Origin: Styela clava
Taxonomy: Eukaryota
NCBI RefSeq assembly: GCF_964204865.1
Contig: NC_135259.1
Location: 13,020,001-13,084,000, forward strand
Length of the DNA: 64,000 nucleotides
Reading direction: 5' to 3'
Under the pieces are notes generated by a model. The model did no database searches. It was not told the DNA's origin and saw only the letters and a program-made list of their open reading frames with translations. Positions 1 through 57,858 of this stretch are shown here, one piece after another; the first letter of the stretch is position 1, and each line of letters starts with the position of its first letter. Position numbers and translations under genes: made by a program.

Positions 1-873
1 AACATCTTCTAAAACGAAGTGAGTTTTTTTATCAATACTTGACGAAACGGAAATACAAATATCAAATTTTGAAACGAAAATAAATTCTACAGAATTAAGA
101 CTCGAGAGTATATCTTACTGTGACACAAGCTCCGACATTTCACATTTTTAGGAAGATGTACAACACAATTATACATCAAATAATTTAATGTAAGGATAGG
201 ATTTGTATGATAAACATACTTGGCATAGATGAGGTTGTTGACATGTAGTGGCCAACGAAACTGGCATGCCTGAATGGGATTGTCTCAAATAATAACCAAT
301 CACGGTGCAAATTGAGTTAAGTTTGAAGATAATATCTAAAGTAACAATAGGATCGTTTCACGTAAATTATTATGTAGCTAGTATGCCATAACCGAAAAAT
401 ATTGTAAATAGTAGACATAAGTTTGGCCTTCTACTTCTTCAACAGCCACTCGAAAATAATTACGGACCTCCTGAATTATGCGCACCAAGATGGCGCACAA
501 CCTGAACTTAGATTGTGTATCAGGTAAGGGTTCAGGTTATGCGACATCTTGGTGCGCATATTCAGGAGTAACAGAATTTCATTTCTAAAAAGCTAGGTAC
601 ACGTTCAACTCTGATCGTATTTGAAGTTGTTTGGACTTCCGGTTTGAGGCCTACTAGTAATTCCAACTTAAGTGATTGCAAGTAATATCTTTCTATACAG
701 TCACATCAGCGGAGGCGGTGGGTGGAGACAAGGGAAAAGAAAAAGAAGCTTGGATAAAGAAGAAACTTTCGAGCAAGGTAACTAATAACCTTGGGCAAAA
801 ATTCATAATTTGCTATTTTTCTAATTACTCAATATTTTCTGCAGTTGACGAAGACGCCATTTTGTTTGAATGA
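1..873 (+). CDS. Secreted prepropeptide family member P0 (5' truncated by window edge); exons <1-18, 701-777, 845-873; ...TSSKTN|HISGGGGWRQGKRKRSLDKEETFEQ|VDEDAILFE*
   Basis: GT/AG sites (AA|gtgagt at 18, atacag|t at 700, G|gtaact at 777, ctgcag|t at 844) give an open frame with phases 2 and 1. Clear paralog of PA (HI.GGG.W core; DED..LF[DE] tail). Confidence 0.82.
465..569. mobile_element. About 105-bp hairpin MITE (family A)
   Basis: Long inverted arms ctcctgaa.tatgcgcaccaagatg...catcttggtgcgcatattcaggag; second copy at 6396-6504. Confidence 0.8.
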
Positions 874-1064
874 AGTGTTTAAAGATAGAGGAGACATGTG
901 AAAAATACCAAACATCTAAAAAGCATGTCAAAAACTTCCTTTCTACATATTTGTGTAATAAATGAAATATTGTTGTATGCTTCAGTTTGATATATTAGAC
1001 TTTAATGTGCTGGACCTAAAGGTTAGCAACTAAAGGAAATTCATACCAGAATTATCAGTAGGTT

Positions 1065-1206
1065 ATTGACTTGGACAGTAAATAGAGGAAAAAATTCATA
1101 ACACTAACTTTTGAAATCAAAAGAGACAAATAATTGACTTGGACAGTAAATAGAAGAAAAAATTCATAACACTAACTTTTGAAATCAAAAGAGACAAATA
1201 ACTGAC
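1065..1206. repeat. 68-69 bp direct tandem repeat, 2 copies
   Basis: attgacttggacagtaaatagaRgaaaaaattcataacactaactttt(t)gaaatcaaaagagacaaata at 1065 and 1133. Confidence 0.9.
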
Positions 1207-1478
1207 ACAATAACGAAATGGTTGCAGTGTTATGGTTTCGTTATCAGCCTGCTGGCTTACTTACTGGCTGGCGACGAGCACAAGCATAATTATCCAGTGA
1301 GAAGGATGTAGACTCCAAGTGTCCAAATTTTCCATGTGACACTACAAAGGATAGAAACATTTAGAAATTAAACGTAGGAGATATTTATAAATACGAGCAA
1401 TCAATTGCAAAATTCGAAAACGTGTTGGTTTCGAAAATCCCCAGAAGTGAATGTTGCTTTTGTGTAAGTCAAAAAATA

Positions 1479-1684
1479 GGTACTCCCGTAATGTGTGTAC
1501 CAGGTTAGGGTTAAGTCATATTTTTATTTCTACCTTATTTTAGTTCTATTACGAGTTCGGGGACTGTGTTAGCCAAGTGAATATACCCCCTGCCCATAGG
1601 TTTCCGTCCCTTTACACAACTTTATGTTAAGTAGGCGAACAATATTAGTTACTTCGATGTTGGTACACACACTTCTGGAGCGCC
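1479..1684. mobile_element. About 205-bp MITE related to family A
   Basis: Termini ggtactcc.g.aatgtgtgtacca...tggtacacacacttctggagcgcc; internal ccaggttagggtt shared with 6396-6504; flanked by A runs. Confidence 0.7.
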
Positions 1685-54119: not shown

Positions 54120-56614
54120 ATTTAAAGGGTTAGAAAGTGCACATAGAAGTAAACATATATTACTTAAGTTTGAACCTCAACGTTGAACTCAACGAATATC
54201 TATAAAGTTTATCACAATCGATCTAATGCACCCTTCTCTAAGAAACCCGACAAAGATATCAATTAGAAACCATTGTTACGGATTATCTTATATCAAAACT
54301 TTCTCAATTGACAACGCCTAGAAATTATTTAGATAATTTTTGCCGTAAGAATTATTTGTTTTGGATTTTTCCAGAAAAATGTGGCTTTACCTAATCGGCG
54401 AAATAAAATATAAAAATGAACTCAAGAGTTACATGAAAGGATTTTAACTAAGATAAGGCCAATTACATATTTTGATAACCTAATTGTATAGATCAACCCA
54501 CGCGTGCCCATATACATTGTTACAAATTATATATCATTGTATGGATAAATAAACTTACGGAGAAGCTAAAAACTTGGTTTCTATGTTTTGGTATATATCT
54601 ACATCAAGGGTACAAAGAGCAGATAAATACATCTTGAAACGCTATCTATTAAAGAAGATTTCAAAGATACTATAAACCTGTTAGCATCGATATTATAAAA
54701 GCTAGGTTTAAGTATTATATTTTGATACGCCACTCTTTCTTAACGCAAACCGTGACTATCACCATATTAGGCAGAAGATGTCTGGAACAGATAACGCTGT
54801 CAGTCAAAATAATTTACGTCTCTGTAAACGGAAATTTCGAGAGATCAAGGGTGTAGCTAAGGTTAACAAGAATTCATCATTTTTTTTTTACTTCAAATTT
54901 TCGAAAAGGGAGTTTCTTGTATTTACCAAATATAAGTATTATTTCAATAATTTTCCTCATTAACAAATACATAAAATTTAGATATAATTCAAAATTATTT
55001 GATTTCATACAAGGTTTTCTGAATAAAAGATAGGTACAACTTTTTCTTGATCTAAAATACCAATTTATGTTGAAAAATGCTGTTTTCAAATATGATTACA
55101 GTAAAAAAGAGAAAAATTCTCCAATTAGTCACACATTAAAAATTTCAAGTTATGATCTGGCGACAACATCATAATTTATGATTTGCGAGGAGCGACAAAA
55201 AGAGAATTTTGGTATTTCTTGACAACTTTAATGCATCGAAATACACTTAAAATATTCAATGAGTCAATATTTATCAGACTTTAGGGGACCGAATTAAGGT
55301 TTATGAAAAACCGTTGAAATAGACCCCTTTTGATAAATTGTGTTCAATCAAAATATTTAGCTCAAAAAAATTGATCGCAAACATAGAAATAACTAGTTTC
55401 TTTAAATTCAAGCAATCCAATTAGCTTTGAGAATTTTTTAACGAAATAAATGCTAAAATTGGCAACGCTGTGGTTTGGTATATATGTATTTGTTTATTGG
55501 TACAATGACCATAGTTTTTCGTAAAGAATTTAACTTTTTCAGAAATGTATTTTTCTGCACAATCATGTAAAGTCGAGTGCCGCCATTTGAAAAAATACAG
55601 ACCAATGCAATATCCCCTCGATGCGTATTTATTTGAATGAGAATAACTGGAAATAAATGAATATATTTTTGTTTACTTAATTTATAACGGAAATCTGACG
55701 TCAAATACCCCACCCATCCATACATTTCGCTTTTTGTGGTAAACAAAATTGGCGAAAATTGCAACATGATGCAGTTATATTTTAAGATATAATAGGTTAA
55801 AAATATCACAATGGTTTCGGAGAAATTCATTAAACGAATAAACATTTTTTAACTGGCAGATAGATATTTTAACAGATTTTTTCTAAAATTGATATTATGA
55901 AATAGCAAACTTCAAACTAAGTAACCTATTCATTTTTGAGAATTTTTTGGAGATTGAAAGTGAGGCAAAAAAATAGGTTATTAAACCAAAAAAAGTCTAC
56001 AAATTAAATTTACGTGGTTTGGGAATATCAAAAAAATTACTGATTATCCTGCGTTGCCTTAATCAGTGTTAACTAAATACAATTGTAGGACAGATTCCAA
56101 TATATTTTATTTGCATTTACTCAGAATTATTTATTGGACGTTTACAAGTAACCAAATTATCATATATATGATAAGAATTTCAGCCCAAACTGTCGGTTCT
56201 TGGACGGTTTCGGGAAATTCGATTTTTGCCTATCTACGAAGAGTTTCCATATTTGTATTGTTATTTTTCTGCCAAAGTGACTATAAGTATATATAAACGG
56301 AATGAACGAAATATTGTGATTTCCCATCTTTGTTACGTAATACCGGAACAATATACTAGCGGCAGAGTTATGCAAAAACTTCTTACGCGATGTGTCTGGA
56401 AAATGCGGGACGACGGGTTTGTTATTGGATATAATTATTTTGTCAATCTTTCAACGTATCATCAATAAAAAGGTTTCGTGAAAAATAATAAAAAAAAATA
56501 ATGTTTCAATTTCGTGAAAAAATACGGATATCTTTTTGAAAAATAAATTGAAAGCAATGCACGTGAAAAAGTATTACGCAACGCCTTTTTTCCGTATTCA
56601 TGGGTTCGAAAAGC

Positions 56615-56621
56615 TATAAAT
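56615..56621 (+). promoter_or_regulatory. Putative TATA box of PF
   Basis: TATAAAT followed about 100 bp later by donor CTG|gtatgc (56719/20), with an acceptor ttttacag at 57061 ahead of the ATG. Confidence 0.4.
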
Positions 56622-57106
56622 AGTCTTGGATAGCGAACGATATCTCATATACGAATTTTGCTGAGTATCACAGTATGATCTGTGTTGATCTTTTCGTGGT
56701 CTTTGCAAAATATTGTCTGGTATGCATTTAACTATGTATATAGCTGTATTCGAAATGTGTGGCTGTCGCCTCAGCGTATTTGAACGTCCGATGTTACTTC
56801 AGATTTTTAGTATCACCATTATAGATACTACCAAACCTTTTTATATAAAATTCATCATCAACAATTAAGAGCCACGTTGGCCAAATATCATTTGTTGTTC
56901 ATAAAACAAATAATTTTGAAATTGTTGAATCGTTTGACCATTCTTATAGAATAATATGAAACGATGTGGTTCGTTAACACGTATAATACTAAAATAGTTG
57001 AACCACAATAAAAAGGAAAAAATATTACAGCATTATTTCTCTAAATCTTTTCATTTTACAGTTTATTTAAAATACCAATTTCTGTGTAACAAAAATTGAT
57101 CACAAA

Positions 57107-57858
57107 ATGAATAAGTGCACACAGCTAGCTCTTTTGTTGTTGGTATGCTGCATTCTTACGCTGACAACAACTGTCGAGTGTGCCCAAACACAGGGCGAAA
57201 ATTTGGCAAGAAGGTATATAAACAAATAATCTTATTTCTTAATTGAGTGTAATTTTTCGATGAAGTTGATGTTCAAATCAACAGCATCATTTTACAAAAA
57301 TGAATTGAATAAAACTTCTTCGGATTCATTTTGTCAATAGAAGCATAGAATAAAATGCTGATTACACAAATTTTAAATAGTTAATTCATAAAGATTATTT
57401 ACCTATTTCAATTCGGGTATTTAAGCCACATTTGAAAAATTGAGATGAATTTCTAGTTATGATTATTCATTATATCATTACTGTTTATTGTTTTTATTAT
57501 TATGCACTCTTTTTTTTAATAAAGACATCGTACTAGTGGCACCTGGAGTGGGCTAGTAAAACGTGATCTCCGACGTCAAGAAGAACTGGAAACGCTTGAT
57601 GGTAAATACTTTAAGATTCCATATATAGTTATATAAGTTTCATTGAACAAAGAAATTGGTTCAGCAGAAATATTATATTCAAGATGTGATCGTAAAACCA
57701 ATTAATACAAGTTTTTGTATTGGTCTGCGCGATCTAAATAAATATTTTGTAACATAACAATACGAGTAGACGAATTTACTTTTATCTAATTTTGAAATAA
57801 TCCCTAAAATTCCACAATGAAACTTTTTGTTTCAGATATCGTCGACTTATTTGAATAG
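57107..57858 (+). CDS. Secreted prepropeptide PF; exons 57107-57213, 57525-57601, 57836-57858; MNKCTQLALLLLVCCILTLTTTVEC-AQTQGENLARR|HRTSGTWSGLVKRDLRRQEELETLD|DIVDLFE*
   Basis: Not in the ORF track. Signal peptide; an RR-flanked core followed by KR; DLFE tail; family intron phases. Probable non-coding first exon at about 56645-56719 behind a TATA at 56615. Confidence 0.87.

What the first reader, a model, noticed from the sequence alone, without database searches (positions are those of the whole stretch)
701..57601. Exon 2 may be a cassette for short His/Thr...Trp peptides that are post-translationally modified
Seen: cleavage after the intron-split Arg and at the basic site would release HSHDQIKW (PC), THKIPIIW (PG), HASHRFGPVIWRY (PE), HRTSGTWSGLV (PF, cleanly RR...KR flanked), HIRGGGAWSNSKS (PA) and SSFSVTTFITTWRS (PB). 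Known: ascidians make bromo-Trp/DOPA peptides, including styelin D and halocyamines A/B, which begin with His or Thr and end in a bromo-didehydrotryptamine. Inference, speculative: the invariant Trp is a modification site or pharmacophore. The alternative is that the mature peptide runs from the signal cleavage site to the Trp region, as in Ciona MAM-A, which ends in Trp.
Basis: inference. Interest (0 to 1): 0.7.

Follow-up and report, generated by a model that had tools for sequence, protein, structure and literature searches.

The report
Unannotated sea-squirt secreted peptide gene family
These are real, mostly unannotated sea-squirt genes for small secreted peptides built like the animal's known defence peptides, but the sequence does not back the idea that each one is cut at the intron to release a short, halocyamine-like modified peptide.

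Summary
All six peptides are in the sequence, each at or one residue from the start of exon 2 of a three-exon gene (intron phases 2 and 1) in Styela clava. The window holds eight such genes. A ninth, irregular one lies just upstream, and three probable relatives lie on another chromosome. The invariant Trp is real and beyond chance. The universal 'cleave at the intron-split Arg' cassette is not supported. Arg is the residue expected at phase-2 junctions. The omitted paralog PH has Asn there, and PD has no downstream dibasic site. Only 3 of the 6 junctions fit the standard convertase pattern. The chromosome-C3 relatives have Asn|Pro or Lys|Pro. Styelin genes of the same genome carry a phase-2 Lys|His junction inside the mature peptide. 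Only 2 of 6 cores would end in Trp, and none has the Tyr that halocyamines need for DOPA. Best reading: signal / variable core / acidic tail precursors of the tunicate host-defence type, cut after the Trp region. Short forms stay plausible for PF, PB and PC. No modification was tested.

The parts
1..873 (+). Gene PH (79 aa): end of exon 1 at 1-18 (ATG upstream, L001:9885), exon 2 701-777, exon 3 845-873. Junction codon AA|T = Asn. Core ends W-R-Q-G before K-R-K-R, a possible amidation signal.
   Evidence: no RNA test (outside the stretch laid)
3862..5639 (+). Gene PA (80 aa): exons 3862-3998, 4797-4873, 5611-5639. Junction CG|C = Arg, no basic residue at P2/P4/P6/P8; core 4798-4836; C-terminal site K-S-K-R.
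   Evidence: both introns seen as joints
6005..6992 (-). Gene PG (79 aa): exons 6992-6850, 6210-6143, 6033-6005. Junction AG|G = Arg, no upstream basic residue at the rule positions; R-G-R-R site just after the signal; core 6209-6186 ends in Trp before K-R-K-R-R.
   Evidence: no splice joint among the rows shown
10377..11234 (+). Gene PB (83 aa): exons 10377-10522, 10684-10751, 11197-11234. R-R across the junction; core 10688-10729; C-terminal site R-S-K-R.
   Evidence: both introns
14674..15413 (+). Gene PC (100 aa, RefSeq LOC120338467): exons 14674-14876, 15242-15306, 15379-15413. Long amphipathic exon-1 segment; Lys at P4 of the junction Arg; core 15243-15266 ends in Trp before R-K-K-R.
17750..19445 (+). 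R|H junction and Trp kept, but no dibasic site after the Trp.
   Evidence: both introns
21683..22895 (+). Gene PE (87 aa): exons 21683-21840, 22357-22430, 22864-22895. Junction Arg without upstream basic residue at the rule positions; core 22358-22396 ends W-R-Y before K-R (C-terminal Tyr).
   Evidence: both introns
57107..57858 (+). Gene PF (68 aa): exons 57107-57213, 57525-57601, 57836-57858. R-R across the junction, core 57526-57558, then K-R. Best candidate for a short released peptide.
   Evidence: no RNA test (outside the stretch laid)

Best explanation
A lineage-specific, tandemly duplicated family of secreted, Cys-free peptide precursors of the tunicate host-defence type: signal peptide, hypervariable core, a boundary Trp, a basic cleavage site and an acidic tail ending in L-F-[D/E]. 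Most likely steps: (1) transcription and splicing (shown for 4 genes); (2) signal removal (inferred); (3) the acidic tail masks the core during storage (inferred by analogy); (4) a furin or convertase cuts at the K-R site after the Trp and basic residues are trimmed, with amidation in PH (inferred); (5) the released peptide usually spans the first intron, about 20-50 residues, and acts on microbes or membranes (inferred). The junction Arg is mostly a by-product of the AG|G splice consensus. It is a usable site only where a second basic residue helps it (PF, PB, PC). The Trp marks the core/tail boundary, as a membrane anchor or part of the processing site, and need not be a halocyamine-type terminus.
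For: Conservation sits in the signal (mean z 2.37), the stretch after the Trp (1.39) and exon 3 (1.45), not in the exon-1 post-signal stretch (0.50) or the exon-2 core before the Trp (0.27). L-F-[DE] closes 8 of 8 window precursors. Junction fits (K/R)X0,2,4,6(K/R) in 3 of 8 genes (pattern from PMC6756747); PH has Asn. Arg is over fivefold enriched at phase-2 junctions across eukaryotes (PMC4446445). 3 of 3 styelin genes found in this genome have a phase-2 AA|A Lys directly before His, inside a 31-32-residue mature peptide (mature length from PMC8659048). A C3 cluster of three genes has the same phases and a D-[VI]-A-D-L-F last exon; a matrix trained on 6 window exons ranks all 3 above every other non-training site among 27,434 AG sites. 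Their cores are Arg/Pro/Trp-rich (+12 and +19 in the two intact models) with Asn|Pro and Lys|Pro junctions 3-4 residues after the signal; one equals RefSeq LOC120342025. In Ciona, 12 of 17 candidate antimicrobial precursors with an anionic tail have a Trp at the boundary (my reading of Tables 1 and 3 of PMC7387483). The sister pair PD/PE conserves the exon-1 post-signal stretch (z 5.9).
Against: Long forms are only weakly cationic in several genes (PA +3, PF +2, PD about +1) and weakly amphipathic (hydrophobic moment 0.35-0.48 in PA, PG, PB, PF versus 0.61-0.67 in styelins; PC 0.65 and PE 0.60 do match). The sister pair PA/PH conserves the exon-2 core (z 3.6; 49/77 nt versus 69/131 in exon 1). 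His opens exon 2 in 6 of 8 genes, which splicing does not explain. The styelin junction is Lys, a poorer P1 residue than Arg (general knowledge), so that control is imperfect. Lone monobasic Arg sites do exist (allatotropin, PMC7179676). The link to C3 rests on one six-codon exon, intron phases and layout. No haemocyte expression, peptide or activity data were available. Signal cleavage sites were placed by eye.
Confidence: 0.55

Rival explanations
1. Mixed processing: the window cluster has drifted from a defence-peptide layout towards short convertase-released peptides. PF, PB and PC (perhaps PA and PH) release 8-15-residue exon-2 peptides that act as signals or as N-terminal-His metal binders, and exon 1 supplies a pro-region.
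For: PF and PB have R-R across the junction and PC has Lys at P4. PF's exon-1 extension is only 9 residues. PH has a Gly-K-R-K-R amidation signal. PA/PH conserve the core. In the C3 relatives nearly the whole core lies in exon 2. PC's short form has His at position 3 and PG's at position 2, known copper-binding layouts (recalled, not tested).
Against: Cores share almost nothing but His and Trp (mean z 0.27), unlike receptor-constrained neuropeptide paralogs. In PA, PF, PG and PE the rule-matching cut lies a few residues into exon 2 and would remove the His. No galanin or secretin-family match on this cluster.
Confidence: 0.25
2. One reading: every exon 2 is a cassette cut at the intron-split Arg and at the basic site, and the Trp is brominated and/or oxidatively decarboxylated as in halocyamines.
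For: Trp invariant. Arg at 7 of 8 junctions and His first in 6 of 8 exon-2 cores. PC and PG would end in Trp; PE would end in Tyr, like plicatamide of S. plicata (PMC3039461). S. clava modifies styelin D heavily.
Against: PH lacks the Arg and PD the basic site. 3 of 6 junctions fit the convertase pattern. 0 of 8 cores have Tyr before the Trp. Halocyamines are tetrapeptides from Halocynthia roretzi. The one bromo-Trp listed for styelin D is at position 2, in exon 1. No halogenase or tyrosinase was seen among the long ORFs scanned in 184 kb around the cluster (not a full annotation, and animal genes need not cluster).
Confidence: 0.1
3. Secreted peptides with a non-immune role (tunic or adhesive component, antifouling, gamete or larval secretion), with some copies decaying.
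For: Low charge of several long forms. PD has lost the basic site; PI upstream and C3b have irregular first donors. Runs of three other studies held next to none of the sampled words (no evidence by the tool's own warning).
Against: Layout and boundary Trp match Ciona peptides of which five were shown to be antimicrobial; C3 relatives are strongly cationic. Reading frames, splice sites and tails are intact in 8 of 8 window genes.
Confidence: 0.1

Closest known systems
Ciona linear cationic antimicrobial peptide precursors (Ci-MAM, Ci-PAP, Ci-META4 and the 'novel' family of Ohtsuka and Inagaki 2020, PMC7387483)
   Same: 50-100-residue Cys-free secreted precursors; signal, cationic core, anionic tail; boundary Trp in 12 of 17 by my reading; Ci-MAM-A peptide ends in Trp; the C3 relatives' signal (M-N-K...G-L...E-x-x-A) resembles the paper's second consensus by eye.
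   Different: No sequence match was found. Window members have an explicit K-R site after the Trp, are less cationic and mostly less amphipathic. Ciona gene structures were not compared.
Styelins (Pfam PF17562) of Styela clava
   Same: Same species; signal, core, acidic tail; phase-2 first intron splitting a basic residue directly before His; the copy at C10:16.312 Mb also has a Trp at exon-2 position 9.
   Different: No PF17562 match to the window genes; styelins lie on C10, have later introns of phase 0 by my reading of one copy, end in Gly-Asp rather than K-R, lack the L-F-[DE] exon, and have no Trp in exon 2 in 2 of 3 copies.
Halocyamines A/B (Halocynthia roretzi) and plicatamide (Styela plicata)
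   Same: His or Thr first; Trp- or Tyr-derived C-terminus would be possible for PC, PG (Trp) and PE (Tyr).
   Different: Halocyamines are DOPA-containing tetrapeptides; cores here are 8-15 residues with no Tyr before the Trp. No precursor gene for either was found in the papers searched, and the exact plicatamide coding pattern has 0 hits in this genome.
Clavanins (PF05452)
   Same: Same species; His-containing secreted peptides with an acidic tail.
   Different: On C1; mature peptide and tail in one exon; phase-1 intron upstream; no match to the window genes.

Membership tests
Halocyamine-type peptides | Tetrapeptide length | tested here: not met
   Predicted short forms are 8-15 residues; halocyamines are tetrapeptides.
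Halocyamine-type peptides | Tyr (DOPA precursor) between the first residue and the Trp | tested here: not met
   0 of 8 cores.
Halocyamine-type peptides | C-terminal Trp available for decarboxylation | tested here: inconclusive
   Met in PC and PG only, 2 of 6 listed.
Halocyamine-type peptides | 6-bromination and enamide formation | not testable with these tools
   Needs mass spectrometry.
Exon-2 cassette released by convertases | Convertase-type site at the exon 1/2 junction | tested here: not met
   Fits in 3 of 8 (PB, PC, PF); PH has Asn. Lone monobasic sites cannot be excluded.
Exon-2 cassette released by convertases | Dibasic site after the Trp | tested here: met
   7 of 8; absent in PD.
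Styelin family (PF17562) | Profile match and K-H-K motif | tested here: not met
   No styelin hit for 16 family exon translations or P0001; the genome search finds only C10. The motif is from PMC9966394.
Clavanin family (PF05452) | Profile match | tested here: not met
   Only C1 loci.
Tunicate cationic-core/anionic-tail host-defence precursors | Short, secreted, Cys-free core | tested here: met
   68-100 aa, hydrophobic N-terminus, no Cys after the signal as placed by eye; no signal-peptide predictor was available.
Tunicate cationic-core/anionic-tail host-defence precursors | Anionic C-terminal piece | tested here: met
   Net charge -5 to -8 in the 7 genes with a site (PG's tail was scored there on a truncated exon 3, corrected); PD's tail is also acidic.
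Tunicate cationic-core/anionic-tail host-defence precursors | Cationic amphipathic helix in the mature part | tested here: inconclusive
   Met for PC and PE (+6, moment 0.60-0.65), weak for PA, PF, PD.
Tunicate cationic-core/anionic-tail host-defence precursors | Haemocyte expression and antimicrobial activity | not testable with these tools
   Run tissues are coded; no assay.
Galanin-like (PF01296) or secretin/glucagon (PF00123) peptides | Profile match of the core | tested here: not met
   No hit on this cluster; short divergent tunicate members could be missed, since PF01296 found nothing in the whole genome.

The most novel reading that the evidence does not exclude
The family is an animal RiPP-like system. 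The conserved acidic follower (last exon D/E-[IV]-x-[DE]-L-F) would recruit granule enzymes, and the hypervariable cores would be cut out and modified at the invariant Trp: PC and PG giving bromo-dehydrotryptamine ends, PE a plicatamide-like dehydro-DOPA end, PH an amide. That would supply gene-encoded precursors for tunicate enamide peptides, for which the papers searched showed none.
Probability: 0.1. Interest if true: 0.8.

Novelty: new member of a known kind. Interest (0 to 1): 0.35.

Why it matters
It gives about a dozen mostly unannotated secreted-peptide genes in a species whose defence peptides are known for salt tolerance and heavy modification. Only 2 of them turned up as database proteins, both 'uncharacterized'. 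The C3 members are strong antimicrobial candidates. The shared last exon is a simple handle for finding more. If PC, PG or PE products proved to carry enamide ends, the origin of halocyamine- and plicatamide-type compounds would become directly testable. The case also shows a trap: an 'invariant' Arg at a phase-2 intron is expected from splicing alone.

Tried and rejected
Homologue searches found nothing outside S. clava: profile of 8 exon-1 translations (1 hit among 78 candidates; 2 hits among 1.84 billion representatives, the second a repetitive protein I dismissed); PC residues 55-100 (self only); C3 exon-2 profile (1 hit among 26 candidates); ESM Atlas best scores 0.77 and 0.76, below the lead threshold. 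These searches are weak for short, fast-evolving peptides, so absence elsewhere is not shown. Galanin-like and secretin-like readings came from recalled resemblance (Gly-rich stretch before Trp; His after Arg) and got no profile support. A weak Pfam Toxin_22 hit on PB exon 1 (E 0.019, under the cut-off, over the signal peptide) was rejected. The plicatamide coding pattern gave 0 hits. A biosynthetic cluster was not seen: neighbours are sulfotransferases, SLC22/OATP-type transporters, P450s and a transposon-like ORF. The gene at L010:5.3-7.4 kb first looked like a paralog through an acidic S-E-L-F-D stretch but reads as a secreted phospholipase A2 (by recalled motifs). One search listed no holder on record as RNA; 4 further runs of the same species label held next to none of the words, which is no evidence on expression. 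The scan's earlier notes held nothing. Literature searches listed no paper on this locus; LOC120338467 had 0 occurrences in the 25 papers listed of 1,904. The primary papers on styelin D, styelin cDNAs and halocyamines were not seen.
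Full report
Source. The window is G000:C13:13,020,001-13,084,000 of a 377-Mb genome. My model of gene PC is identical to RefSeq XP_039262419.1, 'uncharacterized protein LOC120338467' of Styela clava, so the animal is the ascidian that makes styelins and clavanins.

Observation. Each sits at, or for PB one residue after, the start of exon 2 of a three-exon gene with a phase-2 first intron and a phase-1 second intron. Contigs from four runs of one study join across both introns of PA, PB, PD and PE (RNA status is the tool's guess, but the joints match the predicted introns). 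No joint for PG or PC is among the 15 rows shown, 26 were not shown, and PH and PF were outside the stretch laid. The window holds eight genes, not six. PH (exon 2 at 701) has most of exon 1 just upstream. PD (17750-19445) was omitted. A ninth gene, PI, lies 2-3 kb upstream with an irregular first donor.

What is conserved. With shuffled-sequence z-scores over all 28 pairs, the signal (mean 2.37), the stretch after the Trp (1.39) and exon 3 (1.45) are conserved. The exon-1 post-signal stretch (0.50) and the exon-2 core before the Trp (0.27) are not. Trp is present in 8 of 8 cores (1.2e-7 if independent; the genes are homologous, but the surrounding residues have diverged, so retention points to selection). 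A dibasic site follows the Trp in 7 of 8. The two close pairs disagree: PD/PE keep the exon-1 stretch (z 5.9), PA/PH keep the exon-2 core (z 3.6).

The junction Arg. Seven of eight junction codons give Arg (AG|A three times, AG|G three times, CG|C once); PH gives Asn (AA|T) and keeps the His. Arg is the expected residue at a phase-2 junction: the splice consensus AG|G spells it, with more than fivefold enrichment across eukaryotes (PMC4446445, passages). In PA, PG, PE and PF a matching site lies a few residues into exon 2 and would remove the His. Lone monobasic Arg sites do occur (PMC7179676, passages), so cleavage there is not excluded.

An internal control. The three styelin genes found on C10 each have a phase-2 first intron splitting Lys directly before His, by my reading of the DNA. 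The mature styelins are 31-32 residues and therefore span that junction, and the bromo-Trp listed for styelin D is at position 2 (PMC8659048, passages). The K-H-K motif is conserved in botryllin (PMC9966394, passages). The control is imperfect because the residue is Lys, not Arg.

A second cluster. A pattern from four of the last exons gave 5 genome hits (0 for the reversed control); four were the source genes and one lay on C3. That locus holds three genes with the same intron phases, a Trp before a basic run, an acidic tail and a last exon D-[VI]-A-D-L-F. One equals RefSeq LOC120342025. A matrix trained on six window exons ranks all three C3 exons above every other non-training site among 27,434 AG sites in the DNA scanned; one of the three had been found with a pattern from the same training genes, the other two had not. 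Their cores are Arg/Pro/Trp-rich, net +12 and +19 in the two intact models, and their junctions are Asn|Pro and Lys|Pro, three to four residues after the signal. The third has no GT at the expected donor. Homology is likely but rests on a short exon and layout. These genes cut both ways: the junction is not a cleavage site in them, yet nearly all of their core lies in exon 2.

Comparison with known peptides. Ciona antimicrobial precursors have the same order of signal, cationic part and anionic tail. A boundary Trp is thus common in this kind of precursor and does not by itself imply halogenation. Halocyamines are DOPA-containing tetrapeptides of Halocynthia roretzi (passages of PMC3039461, PMC8659048, PMC10608444). 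Here the cores are 8-15 residues, none has Tyr before the Trp, and only PC and PG would end in Trp. PE would end in Tyr, as plicatamide's precursor should (inference). Pfam gives no family match for the precursors, and galanin and secretin profiles do not hit the cluster. Passages of PMC6475428 and PMC7251081 gave no link to Ciona neuropeptides. No homologue outside S. clava was found.

Mechanism. Shown: genes, frames, and splicing of four members. Inferred: secretion, masking by the acidic tail, cleavage at the K-R site after the Trp, trimming, and amidation of PH. The most likely product spans the first intron (0.55). Against a uniform antimicrobial role, several long forms are weakly charged and weakly amphipathic, and His opens exon 2 in 6 of 8 genes. 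A mixed model with short peptides from PF, PB and PC gets 0.25, the full halocyamine-like cassette 0.10, and a non-immune role 0.10. No modification can be tested from sequence; S. clava has the chemistry, so bromination of some Trp in long forms remains open.

Verdict. The family is real and appears undescribed in the papers searched, but it is a new member of a known kind of precursor. Interest 0.35; 0.8 if the enamide reading (probability 0.1) proved true.

Noticed in passing
G000:C3:18,325,242-18,336,582 (L039, L040, L031): Three Arg/Pro/Trp-rich cationic peptide precursor genes sharing intron phases and the last exon with the window family; strong antimicrobial candidates; only one turned up as a database protein (LOC120342025). 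One lacks GT at the expected first donor.
   Followed up: yes
L001:6693-8010 (2-3.3 kb upstream of the window): Ninth paralog PI with signal, Trp, K-R-K-R and an acidic last exon, but its first donor does not fit the family frame; a different open reading through phase-0 donors is possible. Pseudogene, allele or assembly error.
   Followed up: partly
window 5611-6491: Contigs spliced like PA run on across exons 2-3 of PG, which lies on the opposite strand, suggesting an overlapping antisense 3' end; contigs cannot show strand.
   Followed up: no
window 33890-39939: A 3,027-bp tandem duplication at 99.97% identity; very recent or an assembly artefact.
   Followed up: no
window 38668-52734: Tandem, partly duplicated SLC22-like transporter genes (72-88% identity blocks) lie between PE and PF.
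   Followed up: no
window 24406-27856 (-) and L002:9196-L001:143 (+): Sulfotransferase genes flank the peptide cluster; the first resembles a heparan sulfate 3-O-sulfotransferase by recalled motifs. No link to the peptides shown.
   Followed up: partly
L010:5339-7400: Secreted phospholipase A2-like gene with a long acidic propeptide holding repeated L-F-[D/R] motifs, similar to the peptide tails; possibly a shared pro-piece motif of secreted proteins in this species.
   Followed up: no
G000:C10:16.31-16.34 Mb (L017-L024) and C1:10.54-10.57 Mb (L015, L016): Three styelin genes and two near-identical clavanin loci; one styelin copy differs from the other two and has a weak first donor.
   Followed up: partly
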